DNA of 64,000 nucleotides from Folioceros fuciformis (GCA_049999805.1 JBNGIO010006274.1:143818-207817); one strand, 5' to 3'; positions 3,601 through 34,133 are shown, counted from the first letter of the stretch. The notes: generated by a model from the letters alone, not told the origin. Numbers and translations: made by a program.

Positions 3601-5930
3601 AGACGTCTAGCAAGCTTTGGTCCGTCTCCTCTATTACCAAGGATGATTTGATTCAAGAAAATTACCTGCAAGCAAAGCTGACAAACTTGGACAGAAGCCC
3701 AAACACAATACACGTGATGCACGAAGAATTATCAGCTCAGTTAACCAATCCAAGGACAGGGGTCATTGAGCATGTTGGCAGCGAGATGCAGCTGCCACTT
3801 GGCTAATCCGTGGTGCTATCCTATAGAGTGGTTGACATGTGGAAACATATGTTCAGAGCAGTACCGCATAGTATCTTGCTCGCAGACCCACATGTGGTCG
3901 GAACACAAAGGTGTCCACCTCGTCAATGACAACACCCTGCACATAAAGATCAAAGAAACTCGTCAGAAATTATGTGAAAGCCACTACAATATCATAGTCG
4001 GAGAGAAGGATCACAAGCTCTGTGGCTCACGACAGCAGTACTCTCATCTAATGAACAGGATAGGCATGGAACATCTCGTACCTTCATGTTTGGGTGTCCA
4101 GAAAGAAGACAAGAGAGCATGTAGCTGGCGTTAGAGGCTGTCTTCCTTTCTGGATCTCCAAGCTGGTTCAGGAAAATAGACAACCCCATGACAAAGTTTC
4201 TTGTGGAACTGTAAGCCAAAACTGACATTCCAGCACAGCAAGGCACTTATAAGTCGTTTCGTCCAGCACACCACTAGGTATGCCATTACCTTGTTCACTA
4301 AGGTTGACAGCAATCTCCGTTCTTGCTCAGGCTTTCCCTTTAAAAGATCGTACACAGTCTGCAACATATCAGCAAACGATGACATTAATGTAGGCGTCTC
4401 GCAAACAGACATTCACTTGTCTTCAGTAAAGATAAACAGACTACCAGTTTCTATTATAGGCACTCACCTTAACCGCTTTCTCCTTCAGTATGGGCAGAGT
4501 ATCCTTGGCAGCTTCCTCCAGAGTACTAACAAACTTGTCATACCTACGCTCATGCCACCACCAGAGTGCAGACAAGAAGCCAGCTATGAGGCAGAAGACA
4601 GGCTGACAAAGAAACGGAAAACGTGACTGCTAAGGCAACCAGGACCCATAATAAAGGCCATGTGAGAGGTATGCATAAAGACCAACCTCCGCTTCAGAGA
4701 GTCTTCCCAGCACCAATAAAGTAGCAAATCCTTCCCCTCCTTGGTTGCTGGCAAGGATGGAAGCGGCTGTTGTGACAAGTATTTCAGCTTCCGCTCTGGC
4801 AGCAAACTGCAAGAGAACCACTGTAAGAACAAAGCTGCAAGCACCACAATACTTCAAGGTTTAGGACAGCTGAAATTCCCTGGGCAAGGATTACGTACTT
4901 AGTAAGGAAGAGCTCCTTCAAAGCAAGAATGCCTGTGACAGCGTGTCGTTTACCGCCTTTCGAAGTCACCATCCCTGTAACACACGTCACCGCCTCTCAT
5001 TACAAGATTTATGCACAGAAAAAGATTGAATGTGGCAGCAATAAGCCTCTGCAACGCACCTAGCAATGCGTCCAGACTTCGCAGATTCGCTATAGGATTA
5101 TCCTGCAGCAGAACAGTCATGGCAGCGACCTTGTCAGCTGATGTTCCGAACTTGCTTGCCTTGGTCACCCAACGTCTGTCACTATCCTTCTCCTGGGACC
5201 TGGCATGATCAGAGGCTGCCTTCTCCAGCAGCTTATCCCCCTCCAACTTTTTTTCATGCACCAACTTTTCCCACTCGCTCTGGTCTCCACTTTGAGCCGG
5301 ATGACTTGAACCAGCAGTCCAGACAATCCGGTCAGCTGCAGCGGCCGCAGCTTCGTACCAGAGGAACGAGGAAAATTGGCGAACCCTGGATACGCTCTTG
5401 TCGGTGTCGGTTGTCTTGCCCCTTTTCACCCCTCCCTCGGCCTCTACGAAAGGAGATGCCCGTTTCCGGTCCTGGCGACTACTACCCTGCTGCTCGTCAG
5501 GGTCTGCATCGGATTTGGCCTTGTTGCTCCGAGCTTTTGTCTGGACGGTTCCCTGTTGCTGTTGTCTTCCAGCATGGGATTTGCCTCTGTTTCCGGGAGC
5601 TTGAGTCTCGACGGATCTCTGCTGCCTTTGCCCCTTGACAACATGGGGTTTCCCCTTATTCCCCCCAGCTTGAGTGTGGACGGCATCCAGCCCAGCGGAA
5701 TCATCGGCTGGCAGCTCCTTGGCGCCCTTCTCCTTCTGCTTTTTCTTGAGCTTGGGAGCGATGGGCCCGGACTTCCGAAAGTCGGAATCGTCGAAGCCGT
5801 CAAAGCCAGCTCCAGGAATGAGCCCCAAGCTGGCTGCAAAAGATGCGACCTCAGCCTGCAAATTTTCGTCATTCACCGCCTTCTTCTTGGTAGCAGAGGC
5901 CCGAGCAGGTTCACTCGTTTGGGCCGCCAT
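665..5930 (-). CDS. NOC1: CBF/Mak21-family ribosome biogenesis factor (NOC1/MAK21/CEBPZ; SWA2-like), multi-exon
   Basis: Exons encode LQAEVASFAASLGL, GTSADKVAAMTVLLQDNP, KPEQERRLLSTLVNK|LGDPERKTASNASYMLSCLL, IFLNQIIL, DSRLLSALLT, HPSVAAMARTLL...YSGDPLQDFALGVFLDRF, PEDVVFHKFY and an acidic tail with SPFASAEEY. ATG at 5930, TAG at 665-667. Confidence 0.93.
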
Positions 5931-5997
5931 AGCCCGTTCCACGGCTGCACGAAGCACTCAACAGCCTGGGTTTAAGCCAACCTGCTCCGGCGCGGGA

Positions 5998-6008
5998 ATT
6001 AGGGTTTA
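5998..6008. promoter_or_regulatory. telo-box (TTAGGGTTT) in the divergent promoter of NOC1 and the Lsm10-like gene
   Basis: attagggttta lies in the 144 bp between two divergent ATGs (5930 and 6075). Telo-boxes are typical of plant ribosome-biogenesis and translation gene promoters. Confidence 0.55.
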
Positions 6009-6074
6009 AGCCTTTCCTTCCTTCCGGAAAAGGTCAAATAGGAGTACATACATACGTCCCAGTGTGATCCGACC

Positions 6075-6784
6075 ATGGAGGAGGTAGGTCCAGTTTTGGG
6101 CAATACGGAGGCGGTTGGCGTGGTCGGGACCGTGACTGGAGCTCGGAAAACCTCAGTTTGGAAGCCCAAGATCCGGTTGAGGCGATCTGAGAAGGGGTTA
6201 GTGTGTTTGATCCAAGCTTTGATGGGGACGCAAGTCATTGTGGAGCTGCGGAAGGACGTGACAATCTCCGGAATTTTGGAAGAATGTGATGACTCCATGA
6301 AGTATCGTACTTCTGCTGCCCTATATTGTGGGTCCGTTTTCTAAGTGTACCATTTGTATCAATCACGCCGTTCGATGTCTGCAGTCTCCTGATCAAGGAT
6401 GCCATCACGGAAGATGTGGAGGTAGGTTTCTTGCTTGGACGCTCCTCCACCGTATCGTGCCACGCTCCCATTACCACAATTGAGCAGGTGGCGTCTGTCA
6501 GGGCGTCCAAAGTTTGCTTCCGATGGTTTTCTTGAGGGGAAGCAACGTTCGGTTTGTGCACATCCCAAAGGAAGTGGCTGTATCGGAGGCCATAGAAGCG
6601 AGGGTGAGTCCATTTCCCGGAGTAGCACTGTCTCAGTGGGGGTGCGGTGGTGGATGACGCGTATTCGCTGTTGCAGCGGTTGATGCTCGATAAAGCAGCA
6701 CATGCTTACATTGGAGGCCGTGGACAAGCGGACGCGAGTGCAGCCGGGTCGTCCAGCACCGGGAAAGGTTTCCAAAACGACTAG
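6075..6784 (+). CDS. LSM10: Sm-like protein most similar to U7 snRNP-specific Lsm10; 4 exons (6075-6301, 6385-6421, 6502-6603, 6677-6784)
   Basis: Spliced product with all introns GT-AG: ...RRSEKGLVCLIQALMGTQVIVELRKDVTISGILEECDDSMN|LLIKDAITEDVE|GVQSLLPMVFLRGSNVRFVHIPKEVAVSEAIEAR|RLMLDK...FQND*. It has Sm1 and Sm2 motifs. The pre-Sm1 helix and the NVR[FY]VHIP ending fit Lsm10 better than SmD1 or Lsm2. Confidence 0.7.
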
Positions 6785-6848
6785 AGATCCAATCCCTTTC
6801 TTGCTACCCAGTCAGGTACACTGCATATTTCCCAGACCTAGCCCGCTC

Positions 6849-9566
6849 TCATGAAAGGAATGCAAGTCCAGTTACGGCCAACACTAGTCCCACAGCCTGT
6901 GCCAGGAGTTGAGAGGCGTACGTTGCTGCAGCATTGTTGCCTGAATCGCCAAAAGGAAAATGTCATGGCTCAGGTGCAATCGCACGCAAGCACCTGAGTT
7001 ATTAATGGTGCAGGTGGCAAACGGGATTACCTGGCATACACACACAGCTGCTGGAAGCGAGTGGACTCTGGTCATAGGGACAAGGTGCACACGAACCTGA
7101 CACAGCAATGCTAGGGCTTAGAAATAGGGAATATCTATAGAGAAGTAGAGAAATAGGGAAATAAGTGAACCAGCTGCAAAGGCTGGGTAGGAGATTACCG
7201 CCTTTCGTCAAACTCAAAAAGGTCTGACAGTTCAGTTCTCGTTTGCATTTTCGTGGTGAGTCGTCCGTCGCCGCAGTGATGTTGTCGAAGCAGTTCTCCT
7301 TGTACGATCTTTGGTGGAAGCAAGCAAGAGCTTGAAAATGGGAAGTAAACCAGCAATTCAGCACGCAGGCGAGGAGGATTATAGGGGCTTACAGCGTGTT
7401 GCCCCCTTGGTTGGTTTTAAAGGTTGGATAAGGGCCAGTAAGGAAGTTACACCCGAGCTTCCTGCAGTTGTGTTAACTCCTTCGTCAAGACACCTGCGAT
7501 TGCAATCACGCAACTGCCAGCGCAAAAGCCAACTTACATCCTCTGGTATTTCTGAAGATCGAACTGGGGGAACGGGCCTTGAAACTCATTGTTGTACAAT
7601 TCTCTGTAAACAGGGCCAGTCCCGGAAAGGAGTTAGGTCCTGTTGCTTCAACTGATTCAGAACTTAGGCCGTCCAAGTGCATCCTCACATTCGGACAAGG
7701 CTCGGAATGTTGAATAGCCAAGCAGGCAAATTCCCAGAGAGGGAGTTCGAGAACATTTGCCTGTTAACGTTTGCCCCGTGGAGAAAGGGTTAGGACAGCG
7801 CCTGTAGATCTGCGGCAGTGAGTTTGGAATGAAAGGCAAGGAAATCATAACTTACAGAACAGTCAAACTTTGAAGGGACTGCCACGAGTCTGGGATAGGT
7901 CCTGTCAACCCGTTCCCCTGTAAGGCACTGCACAGCCAGAGAAGCGCTCATGAGTCTGAGACCAGGCTCATACGTACAAACAAGGAAACAACCCCATCAA
8001 TGATGAGTCCATGCATGTGGTGGTTGAAGCCTTACAGCTCCTGCAGGTTCACAAGACGTCCGAAGCTGCGGGGAAGGCCACCGTAGAGATAACAGGTGTG
8101 CAGGTTCCTGGTATCGTTGGTACCAAAGCAGTGAAACATTGCCCGCACTGAACCGAATGGAATCGAATGGGATGGGATGGACATAAACTTTGAAAGATAC
8201 ACAGAAGCTTACAAGTAGGTCAGCCTGGTCAGGTTTCCTATGTCAGGAGGAATTTGGGACCTGAAGGAGTTACCCCACATCGTCCTGAATGAGACACGCT
8301 TGCGGAGCCACGTGTCAGAGACGAGTTCCAAGAGTTCCAGACGCCGAAAGACACACTGTGCACACAAGATCAGGGGAGTGTGTAATTCACAGTTCCATCA
8401 GATTGGACAGCGTCATAAGTTCGGGCGGGATGGGGCCCGTTAGTGAGTTGTTGCCCAAGTACCTGCCGCAAGGTGACAGAGCATTGAGGGTTGTAGCAAC
8501 CTGGAATAGCTCGCAGTACGCTAGTGAAGAGAAAATTTGCACCCACCCACCCGCACACTCACTCACAGTATCTCAAGATTTCGAAGTTGGCCAATTCCTG
8601 AGGGAATCTGTCCTACCAAGTTGGCATTATCCAGCTTCCTACCATCCATTCACAGAACTGGTCAAGCGAGAGCCAGAGGCAGAGGCTGGGTACTTGTCCA
8701 TATGCAGGTATCATGAGCTGCAACTCACAAGTTCACGAGGCTAGTCAGGCCCAGCAGCAAGTCCGGAAATGTAGTACCCAGAGGGTTGAAAGTGAGGTAC
8801 CTGGTGACAGAGCCAAGCCATGCACGTCAGGAAGATACCTATCAAGACGCGCATACGCACACCCACCGTAGCCTCCACACGCATGGACGGGCGCGTGGGC
8901 GCGGGCCCGGACTAAAGCCCAAGCCCAAATAGCACTGACAGGGTCTGAAGGCTGGTGAGAGTGGCCAGCTCCTGGGGCCAGGGGGGCGTGATAGCATTCC
9001 AGCCCAGGTAGCCAGTCATGGAGATATCAATGTGGTTGCTCAGGTCCAGCACAAGCAGGGAGGGCAGCTGGGCAATCTGCGGAGGTATCGGGCCCACCAA
9101 ACCACGGTTGGTGAGGTTCCTGCAACCCACAGGCACAGCATCAGGGAGCGGTTCCAGCCTGCAACTGCAAATTGGGGAGGCTATGACAAGCGGGATGCTG
9201 CTCGTGACTGAAGTACAGGGAGGTGACGTAGAGCTTGCTGGAGTCACAAGCTACCCCTTCCCAGCCGTCCTCGGCGCACGGGTCTCCCCCAGCAGTCCAG
9301 GAAGGAAATTCCACCAGCCAGTGATTCATCATAGCGTACAGCGCATCTCCTGCTCCCAAGAGCAAGCACAGGTTTCAACATTCAAGCCTTCAACAACGTG
9401 CCGTTGAACCAGGCCAGCCAACTTTGGTTGCCTTCCTTTCACCTTGAGGAGTTGCATCGACTCGGCCTGCCAGGAGGAGGAGGAGAGTGCCGGAGGCCAG
9501 CAGCAGGCACCTCCTGAGCCGATCCGTCTGCACCCAGCTGCCCGAATTCCCGCGACCAGAAGCCAT
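6849..9566 (-). CDS. Extracellular LRR protein (signal peptide, LRRNT, plant LRRs, Cys-rich region, hydrophobic C-terminus; no kinase)
   Basis: Signal RRCLLLASGTLLLLLAGRVDA; LRRNT FPSWTAGGDPCAEDGWEGVAC; LRR exons such as NRGLVGPIPPQIAQLPSLLVLDLS, LGNNSLTGPIPPELMTLSNL, WGNSFRSQIPPDIGNLTRL and LQGNGLTGPIPDSWQSL. The last exon is GNNAAATYASQLLAQAVGLVLAVTGLAFLS* (TGA at 6849-6851). Confidence 0.8.
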
Positions 9567-15654: not shown

Positions 15655-16329
15655 CTAACCTTTGTGACGTCGTAGCGTTCCTGAAGCAGCACCAAATGGG
15701 AGATGATAACTTAAAGAAGCACTTGTGAGACCCGTTCCAGCTTTTTTAGCCGGTCTAGTAGCTGAGCAAGAGTTTTTGTGATGACCAAAGGCCTTTGGGG
15801 TAAACCTTCTATCACAATATGGACACTTCTCTAGTGTTTGTTGAAATTGTTTAAAAGCCCTATCAACCACAATAATTGTATTAGCAGCAATAAGTGTCAG
15901 GGCAATTCATCTTCTACCATTTCTTTCTACATCATAATAAATTCAAATGGTTTCGTTATCATACTCCTCGTTTAAGTCGTCAATTTGTTGAGCTGTGGCA
16001 CTTCCCTTTTTTATAGCAATAGGTATTTCAGAAGTTGCTTTAGATGGCAAAGGTAGAGGACGACGATACTTCTTTGGTTTCTTTTCTTCTTCAGCTAACC
16101 ACTTCTTTTGACATTGAGGGATATGTATTGGTAGACTGGTCAGTTAATTTTATTCAAAATTATTAAATTAGAGAACTCCATTCCAATGATTACCAATGAC
16201 AAATACATATTACTTTTAAACCAAGGTTGCTAGTACATACCTTTTGCTTCCAAACTCGCGTCCACATAAATAGCACATCAACATGCGAGGACGTTTGCTA
16301 GCATCCCCACCTACTTTTATGTCCATCAT
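15655..16329 (-). CDS. C2HC zinc-finger protein (zf-C2HC_2, ZNF474-like), 3 exons, intact
   Basis: Spliced product: MMDIKVGGDASKRPRMLMCYLCGREFGSKS|LPIHIPQCQKKWLAEEEKKPKKYRRPLP...IDDLNEE|AFKQFQQTLEKCPYCDRRFTPKAFGHHKNSCSATRP...HKG*. Two CxxC-H-C knuckles; GT-AG introns restore the frame. Confidence 0.8.
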
Positions 16330-17248
16330 TGTGTACCTTTCATGAATTCTTTACTTTTAAATAAGGTCTTTCTTCATAGAACATATGTGATGAGTAATCT
16401 GATTTACAATGCCCTTCCTTGAAATACTCTTGGTTTTGAAATAAAGTATGTTGCCACCTAACAGGATCGAATCATGGCCTATTACATAACTTTCTAAACC
16501 TGCAAAAAGTTAGTTCGCAAAGATTACTGATGCACGATAAGTTTGTCATATTACTTGTTTACAAAATAAAGAAAAAAAAGAATGTTTCCATCTTGTTATC
16601 CCCTCAACATTTAACATATTTATATATATATTCTCGTCACTATAGACACCTGCTTCTTTTAAGAGGGTCAAACCTTTTTCATTCATACTTTATTTATAAT
16701 GAATATTTAAACTTTTGGATAACTTGTTTATTGTGAAAACAAAAAAATTAACTTTTTTTTTTCGTCCAATACGTACACCTTTCTTCACTTCATTGTATGA
16801 CAAATTTTCTCTTATTGTTCCTAATTTACTACTTATATCTTTTTAAAATTATTAATATTTCATGTTTTAAATTATGTTTTGGTCATATATGCTTTGATAA
16901 AAAATAACATAGTTTTTGATCAATTGATATTAAACTTTATTTAAATTATTATAAATATATATAATATTGAGTTAAACATTTTTAAACCTAAATTATGCAA
17001 TAGTTCTTTATAAATGTTCACATATGCAACAATAAAGGATTGTGGATGGACTTATTTTTTCAAGTTTTAAATATAGTAATATGTTATGAATATTTTTATG
17101 AATAAATAATTTAATTTGAAAATTTTGATAAAAGAGAAGAACTTAAAAAGCACTCAAAGAACAATTGATAAATCTAGGTGGCTGCATTGGCTTGATTCTA
17201 AGTTTTAACTCAAATATAGATTAATTGTAAGCCTTTTGCAAAGAAACA

Positions 17249-17908
17249 ATGGCAGAAGATATAGACAAAGATTGTAAGGATGAAAGAAATATATGCGAAA
17301 AACAAATCCACCATTTTGATAAAAGATATCACAAATGTGTAACATTGAAAGAAGAAAAGAATGTTGACTCTATATGTACATCATTTTTGGACCCACTTAT
17401 TCCAATTCCTTGGGAAGTAACAGAAGTTCGACAATCTAATCTAGCAAATCGACGGAGAGATCTTAATATGTTTTTTCACAAGAATTCAGAGTTATGTGTT
17501 TTCGTGTTTGTAGCAGAAAACCACAATAATGAAGACAAAGATGTAGTGCAAATTGCGCAAAATATGTTATCACAATATTTCAAACTGTCAAAGGATGTAG
17601 TCCATCAAAGTTGGACAATTGGGAAAGCTGATGTGTATGGATCTCGATGCCTTGTTGTGCAATTCGTCTCACAGAAAGATCGAAGACATGTTCTCGATAA
17701 TCGAAAGGTCTTGTGCGGCACTAACCTTACTGTTTTTGAAGATCTGACAGAGAATGCCTATTGTCGGAGAAATGCGTATCGTTCGTATGACAATCGACCA
17801 CGGATATGGCCAGATGAATGTCCGTCCTATATGGTTGAGTATCAAAAGTTGAAGGAAGCAAAGGAGCAATGTGCTTATGCATTTATGCGAACTCAAAAGA
17901 GTTTATAA
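17249..17908 (+). CDS. Stand-alone LINE ORF1p-like protein (RRM + C-terminal domain), 219 aa, intronless
   Basis: A 660-bp open frame in very AT-rich DNA. The segment SRCLVVQFVSQKDRRHVLDNRKVLCGTNLTVFEDLTENAYCRR resembles the RP(I/L)xVxF...KLKGTxIxINED(L/F)T..RR motif of L1/CR1/L2-type ORF1 proteins. No ORF2 follows. Confidence 0.55.
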   Translation: MAEDIDKDCKDERNICEKQIHHFDKRYHKCVTLKEEKNVDSICTSFLDPLIPIPWEVTEVRQSNLANRRRDLNMFFHKNSELCVFVFVAENHNNEDKDVVQIAQNMLSQYFKLSKDVVHQSWTIGKADVYGSRCLVVQFVSQKDRRHVLDNRKVLCGTNLTVFEDLTENAYCRRNAYRSYDNRPRIWPDECPSYMVEYQKLKEAKEQCAYAFMRTQKSL

Positions 17909-18263
17909 GTGACATATGAAAGCAACAAAAAGAATAGTATGAAAAGTGTATGGATTAAATTGTACAATTAAATTGTGTAGAGGTAATGCAAATAATCTCC
18001 TAACTATTTTTTGATCTAAATTCTAACTTTTTCAACGCGAAATACTTGTGTTCTTTTTGCAACAAACAAGCTCTAATGTTTTAGTTTGTTTTGTTGCATA
18101 AAAATATTTTTTGCTCTTTCAAGGAACCTGCTACCATAAGGAGGTGAAAGTATTTGAAGATTATGAGACTTTATTTCTTCTGAAGTTAGATATTTAGAGT
18201 TTAGGGTAAGCCACTTAAAAGTTGTTTTTAAATGGTTCCTCTCCCAGGTTGCATTACATCTTA

Positions 18264-18364
18264 TTAGGGTTTAAGCCCTATGATTTAGGGTTTAGGGTTT
18301 AAACCCTAGGATTAAGGGTTTAGGGTTTGAACCCTAGGATTTAGGGTTTAGGGTTTAAACCCTA
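18264..18364. repeat. Interstitial telomere-like array, about 28-bp unit with a head-to-head palindrome
   Basis: About 3.5 copies of gatttagggtttagggtttaaaccctag with variants; each contains TAGGGTTT|AAACCCTA. Confidence 0.85.
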
Positions 18365-19330
18365 CATGGTTGTGGTGGTTATTATTGTTATTATTATTAT
18401 TATTATATTTTTTCTATGGCTTTTAAATTTTGATCAAGACATATTTAGTTTGCCTTAAAGAAAGTGGGATTAGGGGATGCCTGAAATTTCTAATTGTTAA
18501 ATCACTAAGCTATTCCCTAGGGATATAGGGTTTAGCAATTGAAGATATTCATTCTTATGTGTCAAGAGGGGGACAAGGTTGCAAGGTGATATTTGTGAGC
18601 TAAGAAACAATGGTTTTTTTATTATTATTTTGATGTTAAGTAATATCGTTAAACCGACCTAGAACTTAAAAAATGTTTTTTTTCCCGCATAACAGAGCAG
18701 GAAGGTTGACTCATTGCCTTGGAACTTGTTGGCTCACCAAGTGTCTCAGTTCACGTACCCATTTGTCCAAATGCGTATGAACTCTACGAGGTACGGGTAC
18801 ATGGACTGGGTACGTACCTAGCTAGAGACAATGACTAGAGGGTGGCGGCACCGGGATCGATCCTCGACGCCGTTATTATTATATAAAAATAATAAACGTC
18901 CCAACGTACCTCTCGTTCTTCCCCCCAAACTCCTGTTTGAAATACAACCAAGGCTGTCATCTTGACAGGCCGGGACCGGCAGCGGAAGAAGGGCTGCTCT
19001 TTCATGATGGAAGTCGAGAGACTGCCTATAAGGTGTCGATACGTGACGCGCGCTGCAAGCCCGTCAGTTTGACAGGCGTGGACTCCCGACCTCTTTAGCC
19101 GCCTCTCCTCCCCTGCCGGAGGGCCGTTGCCCGCCATCTTTTTCGAACGGATCCTTTCTCCGAGCTTGGTGGATGAGACGTGCGAACGTCTCGCAGACTG
19201 CCATTCTTGCAAGCACCTCGCAGCATTGCCTTGAGGCTGCTCTGCTACGCTCGCACAGCATTGCGCTGCTTCCACCCACCACCCCATGTTTATTCTTCCG
19301 AGGTAGCCAAGCCTGCTCGGGAGCGCCAAT

Positions 19331-22300
19331 ATGCTGGCCAGGACGTTTCTGTCCGAGGCGGAGCGGCAAGTGGACCCTCAGCTAGGGTACCCGCGGGGGT
19401 ACGCCAAGCTTTGTCGAAATGCGGCCACGCAGCTGCGGGGACTCATCACTCCTTTCACCGAAGGGCCCCCGCAGCGCTTCATCCCCTACGCTCCTCAGCC
19501 TGATGAGGTGGTGGTTCTTCTTCACTTCCGGAAAGGTTGTTGCTGATTGTAACATTTTCATCCGTCTGCCCGTCTGTCTCACATTGTTCTTGTTGTGTAG
19601 ATTGCAAGGTTGAAGGAGCTGGATGCCTGGTTTCCTGTTGTGGCGGAAGAGGACAGGGATCCTCCCAATGCCCGCAAGTACGCGGACTTCCTGTGGCGTC
19701 AGCTGGACCATCTGGGGTATGCAAGTGCTCGTCCTCTTCCGTCTCTCATTGCTTCTTGCCTGCCGTGGTTGCGGTGCGTGTTGACAGTGTTGTTGTGGCT
19801 TCGTCATGTAGAAATGCTGGTTTCGATCCTGCCAAGTTCAGGGTTGATATGTATGGAAATGTGCTCTACTGGAATGCTGACGCTGGCTCTCCTTTGGCGT
19901 GGGAGATTGACCACTGGTTTCCCCATTCTAGTACGTTTTCTGACCTACTGAAGGGAGCATGTGTCGCGCCTGGTTTAGTGTTGTATCCCTCTCTCGGCCT
20001 CCCAGCTCTCTATGCGCCCCCTAATCAAGTCCTTTCCTTTCTTTTGCAGGAGGCGGCAAAACGGTGATGAGTAATCTACGTGTGCTACAGTGGCAAACGA
20101 ACCAACGGAAATCTAATAAGCTGGAGTTTCTGGTGCCTTGGTGGGATCTCCAGCTCGGAGTCTCCATCAACCAGTTCCTGTCAGTGTTCTCCTCCAAGAA
20201 TGCTGATTTCAGGTAGGTCTTCGGGTTCCATCTCTCATGCTACGGTCATGCATTATTTTCCAGTCGTTTCGGTGTGTACTGTCCCTCATGCCCGAGGTTG
20301 TGCGCACGAGCTGCTCCTTCATTGCAGGAAGAGGTCGCTTGAGCTCTTCTTTGCAGGTGGCGAAGAAGAACAAGTAGAAGCGAAGTGTCTTGTTGAGCCT
20401 CATTCCTGGCCTGCCCCGTTTCGGGAGCAGAAGGCGGAAATCGGCTTGGCCGCCGCGGCAGTTGTGTCAGTGTCGAGAAGAGACAACGATGATAAAATTA
20501 GAGGAACGGCGTCGTGGGCTTCAAGGTCTGGCACAGATTTGATCACGGAAACATCTGCTGTGGCGGGTGAGCTGACTGACCAGTGTTCTCTCCAGTAATC
20601 GAGCCTTTTTTTGTCGATCGTCTAGACTCTTGACACCAAACCGGAACACGCCAGCTACTGGAACGCCTGCGAGACGACGATGGAGCCTGGAAGAGGAAGA
20701 GGCTCTACGGCGTGCGGTCCACAAGTTTGGTCCAGGCAGCTGGAAGGAAATCAAAGAGAGCGAGCCTGCGCTGGCCGGTCGCTCGACGGTACAGATAAAA
20801 GACAAGGTGAGGCAGGACTTCATCCTTGAGCTGTATTTCGTTGTTTCCTTGGAGTTCTTTTGAAGGCGATCTGAGTGAACTGTTGTGCACATGGATATCA
20901 GTATCGGCTCCTGAGAGGGGATTGGCACCCTGACAAAGAGAATGTCACGGCAAACGTCGACAAGGAGACTGCGGTGGCTGCAGCCATCCAAAAAGAGCGG
21001 AAGTTGAAGCAGATGAGGGAGGATGAAAAGAAAGTGAAAGAGGAGGAGTTGGCTCATTTGGAAGACACTCTCGGAGCCATCACCCGGGAGAATGAGGCCG
21101 AGTTTCTAGCATTGGAGGACTTGGAGCGGGTTTTGGTGAGAAGCCGAGAGAAGGTGGAAAAGCAACGCCGATGGTCTGAAACGCAGTCCTCGTACCGGAT
21201 CTGCTTGGAGAGGATGATCCGAGACACGATGCACCAGTAAGTGACATGTTGGCCTTCAGAAATGATCCATAGTTTGAGTTGTATGTCTAAGACACCGTAT
21301 TGTCTGTGAGATCTGTAGGAGCGTGGTGTACAAGGAACAGGCCCGATTGAATCAGGCAGCGTGCAATGCACTTCAGGTTCGGCTTGACTGCGAGAAGCAG
21401 ACCTCCGTGGCTGCCGGCACAGACCTGGTGAAAAAGTACAAGCAGAGGGAAGAGCTGTTGGCTCTGTCCTGTCCAGATCAACTGGACAGCGAGGTGGCCA
21501 ATGAGTTGAAAATGCAGGCAATGACAAGCTTCGCTCTTGCGGAAGACGAAGAGGGGCCCAACGCCCCCAAGCTGACGGATTCCGAGCATCGCTGGCTTCC
21601 TCGCCTTCCTCCCGTGGCTGAAGATGGTTGTATTCCCCATTGCGCGTCGAAGCCGGCGGGGAAGTATGACCAAGAACGCGAATCTTCTGACACCCGCAGC
21701 AATACAAGATCCCTTCAAGCTGGAGGGGAGGAAGAGCTAGTAGCCAGCTTGAGGAGTTTGAAGCTGCGGGAGGATTCCAGCGATTTGAGCAGGTCTCCAG
21801 CCGAAGGGAGCTCGGGCAAACGATCGCTGGACGAGGAGAAGGAGAAGCTGGGAAAGGCTGGAAGGGAAGGTAGCCGCCTGAAAAAGAAAAAGAAAGTCGA
21901 TGACAAAGACTCGTCGGACTTCAGGTTTAAAAAGGCGGCCATGCATGAGGTGGATAATGAATGTGGGAAGGAGAGGAAGTTGACTAATCGTCCAGTCTGT
22001 GCAGTCGACAAGGAGTTGGGGAGGGACAGGACGGGGAAGGAAGGCAGGCAATTATCGGAGTCGGGGGCGCCTCTCGGCAGCTGGTCGACAACGAGAGCAA
22101 AGCTTCATGAAGGGGTCGCTGAAACCGGCTATGGGTCCTCTTCCGGCTCTGGCACTACTTACTTGAGAGCAATTGATGGGGACAGGCTGCAGAAGGTCGA
22201 CAAGGTGAGCCGCGTGACGGAATGGCTAGATGCAGTGCCCACTCCCCGGCCTATTCGTGGCCAAGAAAGGTCTGAGGTTTGGGACAGCAGCGATCGAAGG

Positions 22301-26966: not shown

Positions 26967-29383
26967 ATGTCTCTCACCAATGCCTTCCTCCCCGAGCTCG
27001 TGGTAGAGCGCGGATCCTGGGGCGACGAAGCGGTTGGAGACGGCGATGTCGTCTCGCAGCTGGCCGCGCTCTGGCTGCGCTTGCGGGCGCCCGTCGTCGC
27101 CCCGCTGCTGCAGGCCGCCGTCTACCTGTGCCTGCTCATGGTGTTTATGCTGTTTCTGGAGAGAGTTTACATGGCTGTCGTGCTCCTCCTCGTCAAGGTC
27201 CTGGCCTTGTTCCGCAGGCTCAGAGTCCCCAAGTTGGAGCCTGTAGAGGGGGACATTGAGATGGGAAGCCATGTCCAGGGGGATTGCCCCGTCGTGCTCG
27301 TCCAGATTCCCATGTATAACGAGAAGGAGGTGAGTCCCTGCCGCTTTCTTTCATCATTCCTCTTCTCTTGTTCCTGGGCTTGACCGTCTTCTTGCCCTTC
27401 CTTGCCGCCCCAGGTGTACCAGTTATCCATTCAAGCTGCGTGCGGCCTGGTATGGCCCGCGGATCGCATCATCATCCAGGTGCTGGACGACTCCACGGAC
27501 CCCCAGATCAAGGTCAGCATGCTTTTCCTCCGCCGCGCTCAGTTGAGCCGCCTGCTTCCTTGTGGAATTCGTCAGCTTGCCTGGAATCCCACGAGTATTG
27601 ATCGGAAGGCAGCGCATGCGCATCGTGGCAGGCCATGGTGGAGATGGAGTGCCAGAGATGGAGGAGCAAGGGTATCAATATCAAATACGAGACCCGCGAG
27701 AATCGAAAGGGCTACAAGGCGGGGGCACTCCGAGCGGGAATGGAGAAGGAGTACGTTCGGACGTGCGAGTTCGTGGCAATATTCGACGCCGACTTCCAGC
27801 CGCAACCGGAGTTCCTCCAGCTCACATTGCCGCATCTGCGGAAGGACCCTCAGCTTGCCTTGGTGCAGGCGCGCTGGGCTTTCGGTAAGTATCGCAACCG
27901 AACTCTCCTCTCACTCTTGCTGCTTACCTTTCTTCTTCTTCTCTACCCCGCCTTCGCTTATGAACCACACTTGGCATTGTATGCAGTTAACAACAACGAA
28001 TGCTTGCTTACGAAGATGCAAGACATGTCCCTGGGCTACCATTTCTCCGTGGAGCAACCGGTGGGATCTGGATGTCACTCCTTTTTCGGCTTCAATGGTA
28101 GGTTTTACGCCGGCTCTCGTTCCGACCTTTCATCCTTGCACACTCCAATTCAATTCTCTCAGCCACCTTGCTTGCTCTCTCCCACTTTTGTCAGGCACCG
28201 CGGGAGTGTGGCGGATATCTGCTATCAGCGAGGCAGGCGGGTGGAACGATCGCACAACAGTGGAGGACATGGATCTGGCAGTTCGTGCCAGCCTCAAAGG
28301 TTGGAAGTTTCTTTTCAGAGGAGACATCAAGGTCAAAAGCGAGCTCCCAAGTACCTTCAAAGCGTACCGTTACCAGCAGCATCGCTGGTCCTGCGGACCA
28401 GCCAGTCTGTTCCGAAGGATTCTTCCACAAATTTTGAAAAACAAGGTCAGTTCTGTCGTTGCTCTTCCCTTCTTTTGCCAGGGAAAGAACCGCCTGTGTT
28501 CGACTTGCTCACCCGAGTGTTTCATGATATGCAATGGCCAGAGAGTTTCCCTCTACACCAAATGGCACATCATCTACTCGTTCTTTGTGGTGAGGAAATT
28601 GGTTGCGCATCTCGTGACTTTCTTCTTCTTCTCCCTCATCATTCCTGCCACCGTCCTTGTTCCCGAAGTTCGCTTACCTGTATGGGGAACAATTTATGCG
28701 CCTTCCGTCATCACGTTTCTCAACGCGGCGGTCAGCTTCAGGTACACATCCACTGCTTCTTCACCCATTACGCACTCCTGACTGTTCTCTGGGATATCTT
28801 CCTCCTCACCGTGCTGCCCACCCTGTTGTGATGATCCTACAGGTCCCTTCATCTGCTAGTGTTCTGGATCCTGTTCGAGAATGTCATGTCGCTGCACAGA
28901 AGCAAAGCTACTATCATCGGCCTTTTCGACCTCGGGCGTGTCAATGAGTGGATTGTCACCGAGAAGCTGGGCGACGTCATGAAACTCAAGTCTGTTGCTC
29001 TCAAATTGGGCAAGAGACGAATGAAATTTGGAGAAAGGTGAGCGGCCTGCACAAACATCAACCACTCACTCTCTCCTTCCTTCTCCCCTTTCACCTGACA
29101 GTTGTGCGAACACCCACCCGCCGTGGCAGCTCTCTCCCATGCCCCTGCCTTGACAGTTGCAGGGCGATGTCCCACTCTGATTTTCTGTCCTCTTCTTGTC
29201 GGTACGTGTGTTCGACTTTGCAGGCTCCACGCGCTCGAGCTCTTCACCGCCTTTTACCTCTTCTTCTGCGCTTCATACGACTTGGCATTCGGAAGAAATT
29301 ACTTTTGGATCTACTTGTACAGTCAATCCGTGGCGTACTTCATTTGTGGCTTTGGCTACGTTGGGACCATTGTCCCGTCCTAG
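26967..29383 (+). CDS. CSLA: Cellulose synthase-like A (glucomannan 4-beta-mannosyltransferase, GT2), multi-exon
   Basis: Exons encode VLVQIPMYNEKE, IQVLDDSTD, NRKGYKAGAL, VAIFDADFQP, LVQARW, FGFNGTAGVWR, TVEDMDLAVRA, QQHRWSCGP, FWILFENVMS, EWIVTEKLG and GFGYVGTIVPS*. Confidence 0.96.
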
Positions 29384-29661: not shown

Positions 29662-30426
29662 TCACAAGGCCTTGAGAATTTCCTCTGCCCCACTGATAGT
29701 GAAGGCACCGCCCTCCTCCAGATTCAGAACCTTCACGACGCCGTCATCGGCAAGCAGGGCGTAGCGGCGTGATCGGATCCCCAGGAGGGCCGGCTTGTCG
29801 CTCAGATCCACCGCAACGCCCAGTGCCTTGGTGAAAACGGCGTTACCGTCGGAGAGCAGCAGCACCTTATCCCCCACTCCCACACTCTCGCCCCAGGCAC
29901 GAAGCACGAAGGTGTCGTTCACAGACACGCAGGCGATGGTGTCCACGCCCTTGGCCCGCAGCTCGTCCGCCTTTTCCAAGAAGCCTGGCAAGTGCTTCTG
30001 CGAGCAGGTCGGGGTGAAGGCCCCGGGCACCGCGAAGAGCACCACCTTCTTTCCCTTGGTCAGCTCCGACACCTTCACCACCTGTATGTTCCCTTCCTGA
30101 TCGAAGTAGGAGAGCTCCGCCTCCGGGAGCTTCTCTCCAACCGAGATGCTCCTGGACGGCGCAGCTGTGGCCGGCACGCTCGCCCCCGCCGCTGTGGCCA
30201 TACACCGCACCAAAGGCGCCAGCGCTCTCAGCCCCTTGAGAGGCGCCGCTACGGCCCGCATTCCTGCCAACCCTTGCACCTGAGCCTGCAGCTGCTGCCC
30301 AATCTGCGGCGGAGAATTCCATCTCCCAGTCGCCACGGCCGACCGCGGCCGGGGCCCGGACGACAGCGCCAGAGATCGCCCACAGGCGGAGAAGGTGGAT
30401 GCCATGTTGCTGGCGGTGGAGGCCAT
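29662..30426 (-). CDS. PRXIIE: Type II peroxiredoxin, plastid-targeted, intronless
   Basis: A Ser/Ala/Arg-rich transit peptide followed by [43 protein letters not shown] and LNLEEGGAF. Confidence 0.95.
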
Positions 30427-30619
30427 ATCTCCTGCTGAGACCCTTGCTTCTTGGGGCTGCTCACTGCTGATTTTGCGATGGACAGGGTAGTGATAACCCC
30501 GAGTCCAGCAGGCAACAGACCTAGTGTTTCCCCTTCCTCCTCGTCAAGAACGAGCTAGGCTAAGCGTGCAAACGAAGCGGGGGCCGACACGGTCGACCCA
30601 CCGTTCCGGCTAGCCCGCC

Positions 30620-33600
30620 ATGGCTGTCCCTGTCATCGTCCACCTGTTCCTCTGGTTGCTGCTGCCTGCCACCTCCCCTGGCCTCGCGTTCTGCGCCCCG
30701 CTGCGATCCGTGCCCGAGCTCGACGCTGCCATGTACCAAGTCCTGGACGCCACTCCGTGCGTCAGGCTGCTCAATCTCACGGGAGAGGTTGGTTGCGCCA
30801 GTAAGCTCCATCCGGTCTCTGCATCCTCTGCTGGTGTGCTGTCCCCGCTCTCGTCCGAGTGCACAGTTGCTCATCTCAGGCCGTGGGGTGCAGATCCTGG
30901 GAGGCTCAAAGTGAGAGCTCCTATTTGGCACTTCGCGGACCTCAGCACCTCGCTCCCGGAGCCTGTCTCCGTTCTCCTCCCATCGTCTGAGCTGCGGGAA
31001 TTCCTGTCCAGGTTTATGTTGTACCTGGCTCTTCGTTCGCAACTCCAGCCCCATGTCCGTGGGGTACTTAATTTTTCTGCCTGGTGCAGGGGTGTGCACC
31101 AATTTGCACCACTGGTGGCAGGGATTCTGGTGGAATATGAGGATGGCAACGACACATCTGGTATTCCTTCCATTCCGTCTGCTTGTGGTTTAAAGACTTG
31201 AGTGTCGGGAACACGGTGCTGAGGGCTCATTGCGTGCTGGATTTTCAGCAGTCTTCTCTGCTGACTCAACTTTCCCACAAGCACCGTTCTCGGGCTACGG
31301 CGATGGCTACGTGTGGAATCCTACGGTGACAATGATTTCCTCGCTCTCGGTCGTTGGGTGACGCCCCGTCAGCAATTCTTTGATATAGCTTTCATGTCTG
31401 TTCAGGGATCTGGTCTTGTGCACGGCGTTTTCAACATTCCCGTTTTCCAGCTCTCCCCGCAGAGTACCGTTTCCGCTCGCGAGGTATTACCCGACAACTT
31501 GGCGGATGCTAGTGCTTACCGTGTATCATGGGACCGACTGAACGTGCGTGCAAAACAGGTAGCGTCTAAGAACCGGGAGAGCAATCTGCAGTATCCGGTG
31601 CATGTTGCGGAATTCGACTTGGTTATGCAGGTCAGCTTGTTTCTTCGTGCTTGTGTCTCTGCGCAAGGTGCTCCAGGCGCCTGGTGGACAGGGCCGTGTC
31701 GTGGTGGGAAATTCCTGAGGTCTGAATCCTTTGCAGACAACCAAGTCAGGGACAAGAACATCAAAATCATGTCTGGAAGAGCGGTCGTGCTTGCCTTTGG
31801 GGGGTTACAGGTCAGTCGAAAATATATGCCCAAACACCCTTGAAGATAGGCTTGTTCTTGTCTGCATAGTTCGTGAGTCCCGTCTGTTCCTAACGGTAGA
31901 GGCCTTCTGGTGGCACGAATGCAGTGTGTTGTCGGCGCTTCCACCTTTTAACTCATCATCAGCTTGCGGAAAACCTGCTGTCCTTGCTATGGCATCGATG
32001 GATTCCATGTCCTTGTTCAGGGATTTAACACCAGGCGCTGACTCGCCACTCTCTGTGAGTCTCAACTGGAGGCGTTCTTGAATGCTTCAGCCCTTTACCC
32101 GGAGAGCTGTGAAACTTGGTGACTAGTGCGTTAACCTGATCTTGGTCAGATCTCTATCTGGCAAGCTATAGGTCTGTTCTTCACAGGTCAAGGATCAGCT
32201 TTCATTTAGCGTATCACAGTTTCCTTCATCATTAATGCCTCGGCAAATATGGTATTCGCAGGGCATGATTGCTCTGCTAGCTGCAGCGGATGCTTTGGGG
32301 AGGCGGGGTTCTGCCCATTTGTGGAAAATGCAGGTCATAACCTTTCGTATGCTTATGCTTCACCTGTTTCTGTGGAACTGAGCACTTGATCTTTCTTAGC
32401 TACAAGGTTTGCAAAACGAGCTGCCTGTTACTCTGCAGACTCTTTTTTACGTCAAAAAGACACAAAAAAATTGTTCTGTCCTCTGTGCAGGTGGTCTTCC
32501 TCTTTCTGGCAGGAGAACCATGGGGATACATTGGGAGTCGCCAATTTTTTGCATCGTTGGCAGCAAATGCACCTCCATTGGCTGACCTTGATCCTTCTTG
32601 CATTCACCAGGTGAGTTCTTATTCAAAACGTGAAGAGTGTTCTGGTGAATTGTAAAACTTCTCTGAATGACCATAATTTGAGTTCTTTGTACCATCAGAT
32701 TCTTGAGATTGGCTCTGTCGGACGGGCCTCCGACTTGGGCTTGACTACCCTATATGCCCACAAGCAACCTGGCCAGGTCTGAATGGAATGCTAAAGGCTT
32801 CGTTTCTTCACAAGATTACCTGTGTTGCTGTTTTTCTCCTAAACCTCCGTGCTGTGGGCATCTTGTGATTAGGGTGGGGAGTCCGCTTCAGTAATGGGAA
32901 TACTTGATGCTTTGCAAGTCTCTGCTGGCGTGCCAGGTTCAAGTATTGAGGTTAAAGATGCGAGCACATCGAATCCGGGGCTCCCACCTTCGTCATTAAG
33001 CTATTTCTTACAGAAGGTTAAACTTTACCTTACTGTTTTTTACCATCTCAAGTTTTCACAGAGTGAGTCTTAAAGTTCACAGTGTTCTGCAGAATGAGAC
33101 CTTTGCAGGTGTTTTACTCGAAGAATTTGATACAGCCTTTGTAAATCGAGCCTTCCACAGCCATTTTGACACTCACGGTACATCTCCCCACCTTCAGGAA
33201 GAAGTCAATTCCAATACTAGGACCATACTTAATAAGAGTCAGAGTGGATACTCATGGTTGCAGCAAACTCATGAGCTGTGGGATTATCGAAGCGAATCAT
33301 TGAGCGTGCCGCTAAGATTTGTTTGTTTTGCAGTGAACGTTACTTCCCTTGCTGAAGCGGCACGCCTCCTAGCTCGAACATTATATGTCCTTGCTAGTGA
33401 TTCAGCTTCGGGTGTTGCAGCAGTAGATGTGAACGAGACGCTTGTTCAGGAGCTGGTGAATTGTTTGCTCAAGATTGACGAAGACGTGGGTTGTGACTTG
33501 GTGGATAAATATTCAATATCAGCTCCAAGGTCGGCAAGCCATTATGTGGGAGTCGTACTTGGGAAACCTTCGGCGAATCCTTTCCTAGAAACTGTCAGCT

Positions 33601-34133
33601 ATACATCACAATTCATCTGGAATTTCCTAGCCAGTTACGGCCCCCGTTTGGACGAACAGTTTGCAGAAAAGACGGCTGCAGGACATCAGCTTGCCGAATG
33701 TTCAGGGACATGCAGCGGATATGGAGAAGTATGTGTTGGCTCCACTTCGAAGAGCAAAGGGGTCTGTCTCCCTACAAACACACGGTAGGCAGCCGTGCAG
33801 ACCCCTACACTACCCCTCGCTCATCTGTCCTTGAGTGACACTGCTAACTGTACGTATCCTTGTTGCAGATATGTTCCAGCCTATTCCCCTCGATTGCATT
33901 ATGGAGATGGAGGTTGGGAGTTGGTCCCAGCAGCGGCGGAGGATGTCATGGGTTCTGTGGACCCAGTATGGACGGAGAGCTTCTGGAGAACAACTGGTCT
34001 GAGATTATTTGTGCAGGACAGTGGCGCGTTCGATAACTTGGTGTTACTGTCAGGCGTGTGTACCACTGCAGTATCCCTCCTTGCAATTGCATGCACTAAA
34101 GCTTTGTTCAGGAAGAGATTGAAGGAAGCATGA
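30620..34133 (+). CDS. NCSTN: Nicastrin (gamma-secretase subunit), multi-exon
   Basis: Signal peptide; PCVRLLNLTGEVGCA, CLPLGGYSV, SMDSMSLFRDLTPGADSPL, GEPWGYIGSRQF (DYIGS-type motif), NPGLPPSSL, YVPAYSPRL, DPVWTESFW and a C-terminal TM helix. Confidence 0.93.

What the first reader, a model, noticed from the sequence alone, without database searches (positions are those of the whole stretch)
6075..6784. Intact Lsm10-like (U7 snRNP) gene in a land plant
Seen: a clean 4-exon Sm-fold gene. Established: Lsm10 and Lsm11 replace SmD1 and SmD2 in the U7 snRNP that processes non-polyadenylated histone mRNAs in animals, whereas angiosperm histone mRNAs are polyadenylated. Inference: the SEKGLVCLIQAL helix and RGSNVRFVHIP ending resemble Lsm10 (SENSLIILLQGL...GRNVRYVHIP) rather than SmD1 or Lsm2. 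This plant may retain a U7-like or repurposed alternative Sm ring with an unknown small RNA.
Basis: partly seen in the sequence, partly recalled or inferred. Interest (0 to 1): 0.75.

Follow-up and report, generated by a model that had tools for sequence, protein, structure and literature searches.

The report
Plant LSm10 (U7 snRNP-type) gene
This is a real, spliced four-exon gene for the plant counterpart of LSm10, the Sm-like protein that marks the histone-mRNA-processing U7 particle in animals, but the same gene is already named in moss and reported in land plants, so it is one more member of a known family.

Summary
Window 6075-6784 (+) is an intact four-exon gene (6075-6301, 6385-6421, 6502-6603, 6677-6784; all introns GT..AG; 157 aa) for an Sm-fold protein. 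A contig of a public run joins 6301 to 6385. Orthologues align without gaps across all three exon junctions.

The LSm10 reading is supported:
- Exon 3 alone, a close orthologue and a 13-sequence family profile all hit human LSm10 (6v4x_C) best among solved Sm/LSm chains. The profile scores 83.2 bits against 63.7 for the next hit, LSm2.
- A model of the closest orthologue matches the LSm10 chain of four human U7 snRNP structures first.
- The tail has no RG-rich cluster.

Named orthologues come from green algae, charophytes, mosses, a lycophyte, ferns and gymnosperms. None is from an angiosperm.

Novelty is low. RefSeq already names the Physcomitrium orthologue "U7 snRNA-associated Sm-like protein LSm10", and an October 2026 preprint reports LSM10 and LSM11 homologues in land plants.

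Whether this organism has Lsm11, SLBP, a U7 RNA or histone stem-loops could not be tested, because no genome is held and the window has none of them. I could not build a phylogeny with animal LSm10 and the paralogues. "Land plant" is plausible but not shown.

The parts
5993..6074 (+). minimum 5' UTR of the LSm10-like gene
   Evidence: Contig record 2 of run X1 lies on 5993-6301 with 0 other letters. An in-frame stop lies just upstream of the frame that opens at 6042, and my reading finds no ATG between 5993 and 6075. A contig end is not a mapped transcript start.
6075..6301 (+). exon 1 (CDS aa 1-75 plus 2 nt): 31-aa N-terminal extension, N-terminal helix (SEKGLVCLIQAL) and Sm1 motif up to DDSM
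   Evidence: Translation. Pfam LSM aa 46-75, E 5.5e-5. 25 relatives found with this exon alone. Donor AA|GTATCG.
6302..6384 (+). intron 1, 83 nt, GT..AG
   Evidence: Joint 6301->6385 'skips 83, GT..AG' in one contig of X1, depth 20.1, 38 letters on the shorter side.
6385..6421 (+). exon 2 (completes Asn76, then LLIKDAITEDVE)
   Evidence: AA+T gives the Asn of the Sm1 motif. Ungapped alignment to orthologues.
6422..6501 (+). intron 2, 80 nt, GT..AG
   Evidence: Donor GAG|GTAGGT and acceptor TCTGTCAG|G. This junction gives the same spacing as orthologues (EDVEG + 4 residues + LP). No contig joint was listed. Contig 2 stops one letter after 6421 and contig 3 starts at 6500, which I read only as a weak hint of a branch at this junction.
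6502..6603 (+). exon 3 (aa 89-122): Sm2 motif LRGSNVRFVHIP and start of the C-terminal helix
   Evidence: Translation. Pfam LSM profile positions 51-65. Best solved-structure hit is human LSm10 6v4x_C, E 1.1e-3.
6604..6676 (+). intron 3, 73 nt, GT..AG
   Evidence: Donor AGG|GTGAGT and acceptor GTTGCAG|C. Supported by ungapped homology across aa 122/123. Not seen as a joint: contig record 3 of X1 runs through it unbroken.
6677..6784 (+). exon 4 (aa 123-157 and the TAG stop): RLMLDKAAHAYIGGRG tail shared with plant orthologues, no RG-rich cluster
   Evidence: Translation. The orthologue consensus RLxLDxAAxAY..G.G is.

Best explanation
The gene encodes the orthologue of LSm10 in a streptophyte that is not an angiosperm.

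Shown: it is an intact gene with at least intron 1 spliced. It encodes a 157-aa Sm-fold protein with both Sm motifs, and it belongs to a family conserved across green algae, charophytes, mosses, a lycophyte, ferns and gymnosperms. That family is nearer to human LSm10 than to any other solved Sm/LSm protein, in sequence and in predicted fold.

Inferred from the animal system: the protein pairs with an Lsm11-type partner and takes the SmD1 position in a heptameric Sm ring, together with SmE, F, G, B and D3. The ring assembles on a U7-type small RNA, and that particle guides cleavage of replication-dependent histone pre-mRNAs downstream of a 3' stem-loop.

My odds: LSm10 orthology about 0.88. Given orthology, a U7-type histone-processing role in this organism about 0.65-0.7.
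For: Gene reality:
- Searches give the gene model and ungapped homology across all exon junctions.
- a contig joins 6301 to 6385. All 12 of 12 joints listed on the 4-kb stretch have GT..AG or CT..AC ends, so the run holds spliced transcripts of this same organism. All 3 contigs laid are 99% or more alike.

Sm fold:
- Pfam LSM hits exons 1 and 3.
- The AlphaFold2 model of the closest orthologue P0036 (57.6% identical to the window protein) shows an N-terminal helix, five strands and a C-terminal helix. Mean pLDDT is 83.1 and pTM 0.68.

LSm10 rather than a paralogue:
- Exon 3 against PDB sequences: LSm10 6v4x_C E 1.1e-3 (21.9 bits), next SmD3 at E 0.44.
- P0023: LSm10 2.1e-15 / 59.9 bits, aligned over residues 8-110, against LSm4 at 2.3e-10 / 43.6 bits.
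- 13-sequence profile A2: LSm10 1.1e-22 / 83.2 bits, LSm2 63.7, LSm4 55.3, SmD3 49.9, SmD1 41.8.
- Foldseek ranks 1-4 are chain C (LSm10) of 9nh5, 9n96, 6v4x and 9nb1, with 92-113 aligned columns against 70-84 for most other Sm chains (one other, 5nrl_l at rank 17, aligns over 105).
- ESM Atlas named clusters ranked 1 and 2 are 'U7 snRNA-associated Sm-like protein LSm10' at 0.93.
- The tail has a single GRG and no RG-rich cluster. SmD1, SmB and SmD3 carry GR-rich C-terminal tails (PMC10578488, passages).

Independent naming: XP_024388930.1 of Physcomitrium patens and PNH07487.1 of Tetrabaena socialis are named LSm10 by their sources.

Against: - Exon 1 alone finds LSm4 and LSm2 first among solved chains (E 0.16-0.3). 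LSm10 is not among its 9 hits at E up to 10.
- No animal LSm10 and no canonical Sm paralogue came back from any of the protein searches, so I could not build a tree that tests monophyly with animal LSm10.
- The ESM Atlas margin over SmD3 is thin: 0.93 against 0.92.
- The PDB and fold tests used orthologues and a profile, not the window's full protein. Only its exons could be submitted.
- Nothing in the window speaks for the pathway. There are 0 Rfam families at gathering score, and only two chance-level rows at E up to 1, neither of them U7 or Histone3. None of the 18 large ORFs scanned has a histone, SLBP or second Sm domain.
- No whole genome is held, so Lsm11, SLBP, U7 and histone 3' ends in this organism are unknown.
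- The only contig over intron 3 is unspliced.
- The names in RefSeq and GenBank are automatic, and the preprint is a computational survey. No plant U7 snRNP has been shown at the bench in anything I read.
Confidence: 0.7

Rival explanations
1. It is a true LSm10 orthologue that has been repurposed. The ring it forms sits on some other small RNA, or acts in snRNP assembly or another RNA pathway, and histone mRNAs in this lineage are made by ordinary cleavage and polyadenylation.
For: The family persists through gymnosperms. The preprint describes plant stem-loops as increasingly divergent and 'decoupled' from SLBP. No plant U7 RNA turned up in the window, and none was reported at the bench in the passages I read.
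Against: No named angiosperm orthologue appears among the hits. That loss pattern fits the lineage whose histone mRNAs are polyadenylated (PMC8600027 introduction, passage). A gene with a general housekeeping role would be less likely to be lost. The preprint reports co-occurrence with LSM11 and stem-loops in bryophytes.
Confidence: 0.17
2. It is not an LSm10 orthologue. It is a green-lineage paralogue of LSm2, LSm4 or SmD3 that happens to score best on LSm10.
For: Exon 1 alone prefers LSm4 and LSm2. The ESM Atlas places SmD3 at 0.92, just below LSm10 at 0.93. No tree with the paralogues was possible.
Against: The bit-score margin for LSm10 is 16-20 bits in two searches. The alignment to LSm10 runs through the N-terminal helix and the C-terminal helix (residues 8-110 of 126). 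Foldseek ranks 1-4 are all LSm10 chains. There is no RG-rich tail such as SmD3 and SmD1 carry.
Confidence: 0.1
3. It is a decaying or non-functional copy.
For: There is no direct contig evidence for splicing of introns 2 and 3. An abundant antisense transcript overlaps exons 3-4.
Against: The reading frame is open, all three introns have GT..AG ends, and intron 1 is spliced. The window protein scores 155.3 bits against the family profile A3. I checked residues only by eye against the profile-A1 list: of its 11 invariant columns the window protein keeps the nine inside the Sm fold and tail, has His at the Asn of GSNIRF (NVRFVH), and has no counterpart of the orthologues' start Met because of its N-terminal extension.
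Confidence: 0.03

Closest known systems
Human LSm10 (U7 snRNA-associated Sm-like protein; PDB 6v4x chain C, also 9n96, 9nb1, 9nh5, 9nh6)
   Same: Best solved-structure match by sequence for exon 3, for an orthologue and for the family profile. Best fold match as well. It shares the N-terminal helix motif (sE.sL..l.q.LqG), the Sm2 stretch G.NVR(F/Y)VHIP and the following D/E-rich helix (..IE..). It also has no RG-rich tail.
   Different: Foldseek reports 29-33% identity between the orthologue model and the four LSm10 chains. The window protein has a 31-residue N-terminal extension that the plant orthologues lack. No partner RNA or Lsm11 is known for this organism.
Physcomitrium patens XP_024388930.1, 'U7 snRNA-associated Sm-like protein LSm10 isoform X2' (P0045), with the orthologues in Sphagnum, Ceratodon, Diphasiastrum, Ceratopteris, Adiantum, Cryptomeria, Picea and Welwitschia
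   Same: 57% identity over 114 residues with no gaps. Same domain order and the same RRLxLDxAAxAYxGGKG tail. Same family in the tree.
   Different: The window protein branches outside the moss, lycophyte, fern and gymnosperm group (98/89 support). It is no more than 59% identical to any protein found (59.4% over 96 residues to Ceratodon P0053; highest full-length match 57.6%, P0036), so this organism's copy was not in the collections searched.
SmD1, the spliceosomal subunit that LSm10 replaces
   Same: Sm fold, and presumably the same ring position (PMC10578488 calls Lsm10 'the SmD1 counterpart').
   Different: The profile scores only 41.8 bits on SmD1 against 83.2 on LSm10. SmD1 has a GR-rich methylated tail, while this protein has a single GRG.
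LSm2 and LSm4 (U6 snRNP / Lsm1-7 ring)
   Same: They are the runners-up in the sequence searches.
   Different: They score 16-20 bits lower than LSm10 and give shorter structural alignments, 78-84 columns against 92-113.

Membership tests
LSm10 (U7 snRNP-specific Sm-like protein) | Sm fold with Sm1 and Sm2 motifs | tested here: met
   Pfam PF01423 on exon 1 (E 5.5e-5) and exon 3 (E 0.025). The orthologue model shows a helix plus five strands.
LSm10 (U7 snRNP-specific Sm-like protein) | Nearer in sequence to LSm10 than to any other Sm/LSm paralogue | tested here: met
   Against all PDB chains: exon 3 gives LSm10 1.1e-3 against SmD3 0.44. Orthologue P0023 gives 59.9 against 43.6 bits. Profile A2 gives 83.2 against 63.7 bits. 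Caveat: exon 1 alone prefers LSm4 and LSm2 weakly.
LSm10 (U7 snRNP-specific Sm-like protein) | Fold, including the terminal helices, matches the LSm10 chain of solved U7 snRNPs | tested here: met
   Foldseek ranks 1-4 are 9nh5_C, 9n96_C, 6v4x_C and 9nb1_C. The model is of orthologue P0036, not the window protein itself.
LSm10 (U7 snRNP-specific Sm-like protein) | No RG-rich, methylated C-terminal tail (unlike SmD1, SmD3 and SmB) | tested here: met
   The exon 4 translation has one GRG only. The GR-rich tails of D1, B and D3 are described in PMC10578488 (passages). That LSm10 itself lacks such a tail is my recollection plus the 6v4x_C alignment.
LSm10 (U7 snRNP-specific Sm-like protein) | Forms one clade with animal LSm10 to the exclusion of canonical Sm and LSm1-8 proteins | not tested
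   No animal LSm10 or paralogue sequences could be obtained as usable records. The tree holds family members only.
LSm10 (U7 snRNP-specific Sm-like protein) | Heterodimer with Lsm11 and assembly on U7 snRNA | not testable with these tools
   No Lsm11 or U7 sequence of this organism is at hand and no genome is held.
LSm10 (U7 snRNP-specific Sm-like protein) | Co-occurs in the genome with Lsm11, SLBP, U7 snRNA and histone 3' stem-loops | not testable with these tools
   No genome is held. The window holds none of these. The only support is the preprint's survey of other plants.
SmD1 | GR-rich C-terminal tail and best similarity to SmD1 | tested here: not met
   A single GRG in the tail. SmD1 chains score 41.8 bits or less against 83.2 for LSm10.
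LSm2 / LSm4 | Best similarity to LSm2 or LSm4 over the whole protein | tested here: not met
   LSm2 63.7 and LSm4 55.3 bits against LSm10 83.2. Only the exon 1 fragment ranks them first, at E 0.16-0.3.

The most novel reading that the evidence does not exclude
Land plants other than angiosperms (bryophytes through gymnosperms), this organism among them, still run a working U7-type snRNP with an LSm10/Lsm11 ring. It makes stem-loop-ended, non-polyadenylated histone mRNAs, and the whole module was lost on the angiosperm stem. On this reading the gene is a direct handle: tag it and pull down the small RNA. That could identify the first plant U7 snRNA, which nothing I read has identified at the bench.
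Probability: 0.45. Interest if true: 0.6.

Novelty: new member of a known kind. Interest (0 to 1): 0.3.

Why it matters
Histone mRNA 3' end formation by the U7 snRNP is usually taught as an animal speciality that plants lack. An intact, spliced and conserved LSm10 gene in a streptophyte adds one data point. So does a family that the searches here found from green algae to gymnosperms but not in any named angiosperm. Both fit the view that the machinery is ancient and was lost late in the plant lineage.

The idea is not new. RefSeq already names the moss protein LSm10, and a 2026 preprint surveys LSM10, LSM11, SLBP and stem-loops across eukaryotes. The open question is experimental: does a plant U7 particle exist, and what RNA does it hold? 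This gene, or its moss orthologue, is a practical entry point for that experiment.

Tried and rejected
Lsm11, SLBP, U7 and histone 3' ends in this organism therefore stay open.
- Exon 1 against longer proteins by word index: 31 candidates, none at E 0.01 or better.
- Pulling in animal LSm10 and canonical Sm proteins for a paralogue tree. Profile A1 was swamped (8000 candidates, 32 hits, all family members). The cleaned profile A2 at E up to 10 gave 49 hits among 1131 candidates, again family members only. The paralogue tree was dropped.
- Rfam on the whole window: 0 families at gathering score. At E up to 1 there were two rows (SurA sRNA, archaeal RNase P) far below their cut-offs, which I take as chance.
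- Sequencing runs: no RNA holder is listed on record. One run (X1, kind only guessed as RNA) holds 0.74 of the sampled words. Two further runs of the same study hold next to none.
- In X1 no joint was listed for introns 2 and 3, and the contig over 6500-6939 is unspliced. Contigs drop rare forms, so I do not count this against the model.
- Alternative intron 2 junctions (donor at 6426, acceptors at 6485 or 6488) keep the frame but add residues. I rejected them because 6421/6502 gives the exact orthologue spacing with 0 gaps.
- Earlier findings of this scan: nothing by place, words or sequence.
- Lopez and Samuelsson 2008 (RNA 14:1): the PMC id I recalled is not held. I know that paper only through citations in the preprint. 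The preprint's supplements and GitHub lists, which would say which land plants have LSM10 and LSM11, were not seen.
- I sent no complex prediction, because no partner sequence from this lineage was available.

Full report
**1. What is in the sequence**

Reading window 5500-7400 shows an ATG at 6075-6077. The open frames can be joined through three short introns:
- exon 1, 6075-6301
- exon 2, 6385-6421
- exon 3, 6502-6603
- exon 4, 6677-6784, ending in TAG

A script confirmed that every intron has GT..AG ends (83, 80 and 73 nt) and that the joined CDS is 474 nt, or 157 codons plus the stop. Joining exon 1 to exon 2 creates the Asn of the Sm1 motif (DDSM-N-LLIKD).

**2. Is it a real gene?**

Pfam's LSM domain matches exon 1 (E 5.5e-5; 23.2 bits against a gathering score of 23.4 for this half-domain) and exon 3 (E 0.025).

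An exhaustive HMMER search of 1.84 billion representatives with exon 1 alone gave 25 proteins at E 1e-3 or better. These and later hits are full-length Sm proteins with the same architecture. The spliced window protein, built only inside scripts, aligns to them at 55-58% identity with E down to 1.6e-50. It has 0 gaps from residue 36 to 138-149 against P0043, P0035 and P0045, which spans all three exon junctions. It scores 155.3 bits against a profile of 28 family members.

One public run (X1) holds 0.74 of the sampled words of the locus. Its kind is recorded only as a guess. When laid on window 4000-8000, its contigs match with no differing letters. All 12 of 12 listed joints have GT..AG or CT..AC ends, so the contigs are spliced transcripts of the same organism. 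One contig covers 5993-6301 and joins 6301 to 6385, which confirms intron 1 and at least 82 nt of 5' UTR.

No joint was listed for introns 2 and 3. The only contig listed over 6500-6939 is unspliced there. It belongs, by its CT..AC introns further right, to a convergent minus-strand gene. Those two junctions therefore rest on homology.

**3. Which Sm protein is it?**

I tested its exons, its close orthologues and family profiles instead.

| Query (against all PDB chain sequences) | Best hit | Next hit |
|---|---|---|
| Exon 3 | human LSm10 6v4x_C, E 1.1e-3 | SmD3, E 0.44 |
| Exon 1 | LSm4 / LSm2, E 0.16-0.3 (LSm10 absent from its 9 hits) | n/a |
| Orthologue P0023 (55% identical to the window protein) | LSm10, 2.1e-15 / 59.9 bits, residues 8-110 of 126 | LSm4, 2.3e-10 / 43.6 bits |
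| 13-sequence profile A2 | LSm10, 1.1e-22 / 83.2 bits | LSm2 63.7, LSm4 55.3, SmD3 49.9, SmD1 41.8 bits |

Three further lines agree:
- An AlphaFold2 model of the closest orthologue P0036 (28-row alignment, mean pLDDT 83.1, pTM 0.68) has an N-terminal helix, five strands and a long C-terminal helix. Its Foldseek ranks 1-4 are the LSm10 chain C of four human U7 snRNP structures, with 92-113 aligned columns against 70-84 for most other Sm chains (5nrl_l at rank 17 has 105).
- The ESM Atlas ranks two chordate 'LSm10' clusters first at 0.93, with SmD3 close behind at 0.92. This is a lead that agrees, by a thin margin.
- The C-terminal tail has one GRG and no RG-rich cluster. That is unlike the GR-rich tails of SmD1, SmB and SmD3 (PMC10578488, passages).

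What I could not do is a tree with animal LSm10 and the canonical paralogues. None of the protein searches returned such sequences.

**4. Who else has it?**

Source names for hits give the following organisms:
- Chlorophytes: Haematococcus, Edaphochlamys, Astrephomene, Tetrabaena, Pterosperma, Ostreococcus
- Charophytes: Coleochaete, Chara
- Mosses: Physcomitrium, Ceratodon, four Sphagnum species
- A lycophyte: Diphasiastrum
- Ferns: Ceratopteris, Adiantum
- Gymnosperms: Cryptomeria, Picea, Welwitschia

In one search, 13 of 49 rows carry an organism name, from 9 species, and none is an angiosperm. The same holds for the clusters looked up. Angiosperm proteomes are heavily represented in public collections, so this suggests loss or strong divergence in angiosperms. 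The searches were limited by word index or by using exon 1 only, so it is not proof.

Two sources already name their member 'U7 snRNA-associated Sm-like protein LSm10': XP_024388930.1 of Physcomitrium patens and PNH07487.1 of Tetrabaena socialis.

**5. Which organism?**

I built a maximum-likelihood tree of 29 rows: the window protein plus 28 chosen family members. It included all named full-length species representatives except Chara, whose record has a long insertion. Fragments, isoforms and most unnamed near-duplicates were left out.

The tree places the window protein inside streptophytes. Coleochaete branches first (96/94), and then the window protein is sister to the moss, lycophyte, fern and gymnosperm orthologues (98/89). 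Pterosperma fell inside that group on a very long branch (2.13), which the tool flags as unreliable.

This placement fits a liverwort or hornwort, or a late-branching charophyte. 'Land plant' is plausible but not shown. The protein is no more than 59% identical to any protein found, so this organism's copy was not in the collections searched.

**6. Surroundings**

- Left: a divergent minus-strand gene whose transcript contig reaches 6016. It overlaps the start of the LSm10-like contig at 5993.
- Right: a convergent minus-strand gene whose last exon or UTR covers 6500-6939, antisense to exons 3-4.
- Eighteen large ORFs elsewhere in the window gave only ordinary nuclear families: a family 2 glycosyltransferase, a Redoxin, a UCH protease, a helicase C domain and a weak nicastrin match.
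- No histone gene, SLBP, second Sm gene, U7 RNA or histone stem-loop was found.

**7. How it most likely works**

By homology with the solved human particle, LSm10 pairs with Lsm11 and the pair replaces SmD1/SmD2 in the heptameric ring on U7 snRNA (abstract and passages of PMC10578488). The particle base-pairs with the histone downstream element and brings in the cleavage module.

For this organism only the first step is shown: an intact, spliced LSm10 orthologue. The partner, the RNA and the substrate are inferred.

Support from print is a computational preprint (10.64898/2026.10.14.759114; sections 7, 12 and part 1 of 15 read, plus passages). It reports:
- LSM10 and LSM11 homologues in green algae and land plants;
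- SLBP in mosses and seed plants;
- relatively canonical histone stem-loops in green algae, bryophytes and gymnosperms.

Its supplements and lists were not seen, so I cannot say which land plants it covers.

**8. Novelty and verdict**

The gene and its LSm10 affinity are real. But the family is already labelled in RefSeq for a moss, and its presence in land plants is in print as a preprint. This is therefore a further member of a known kind.

What remains open, and moderately interesting, is experimental:
- whether land plants other than angiosperms run a functional U7 pathway;
- what the plant U7 RNA is;
- whether the module was lost on the angiosperm stem.

Interest 0.3.

Noticed in passing
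window 6500-7927, minus strand: A convergent multi-exon gene. One 2073-nt contig of run X1 (depth 236.7 against 20.1 for the LSm10-like contig) lies unbroken on 6500-6939. It then skips 6939->7030, 7094->7197, 7308->7393, 7460->7537, 7603->7689 and 7759->7855, all with CT..AC ends. Its last exon or 3' UTR therefore overlaps exons 3-4 of the LSm10-like gene in antisense. Its product was not identified.
   Followed up: partly
window 4081-6016, minus strand: A divergent head-to-head neighbour. A 5486-nt contig with five CT..AC introns (4162-5059) reaches 6016, and the LSm10-like contig starts at 5993, so the two contigs overlap by about 24 nt. Its large first exon (ORF 4950-5957) is Lys/Arg-rich and has no Pfam family.
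   Followed up: partly
window 5999-6007: TTAGGGTTT lies between the two divergent genes, inside both 5' contigs. It is the reverse complement of AAACCCTAA, which I recall as the plant 'telo-box' promoter element. Neither the name nor any enrichment was tested here.
   Followed up: no
window 6075-6167: The window protein has a 31-residue N-terminal extension (MEEVGPVLGNTEAVG...) that all named plant orthologues lack. They start 5-10 residues before the conserved ER.L.C motif. I see no later Met before the Sm fold and no ATG between 5993 and 6075, so the extension is probably translated.
   Followed up: partly
window 27384-28781 (+), 29662-30543 (-), 39960-41364 (-), 54765-55532 (-), 33000-33788 (+): Other gene fragments with Pfam families: Glyco_trans_2_3 (7.9e-15), Redoxin (4.3e-35), UCH in two adjacent ORFs (2.3e-20 and 1.9e-18), Helicase_C (2.4e-6), and a weak Nicastrin match (2.8e-4, below its cut-off). 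This is an ordinary gene-dense nuclear context.
   Followed up: no
window 16001-20000: GC content falls to 0.388 here, against 0.44-0.56 in the rest of the window. I did not examine it.
   Followed up: no
proteins P0009 (Chara braunii) and P0071/P0072 (unnamed): Some database members of the family carry long insertions between the Sm1 and Sm2 halves. They look like unspliced introns read through in the gene models rather than real insertions.
   Followed up: no
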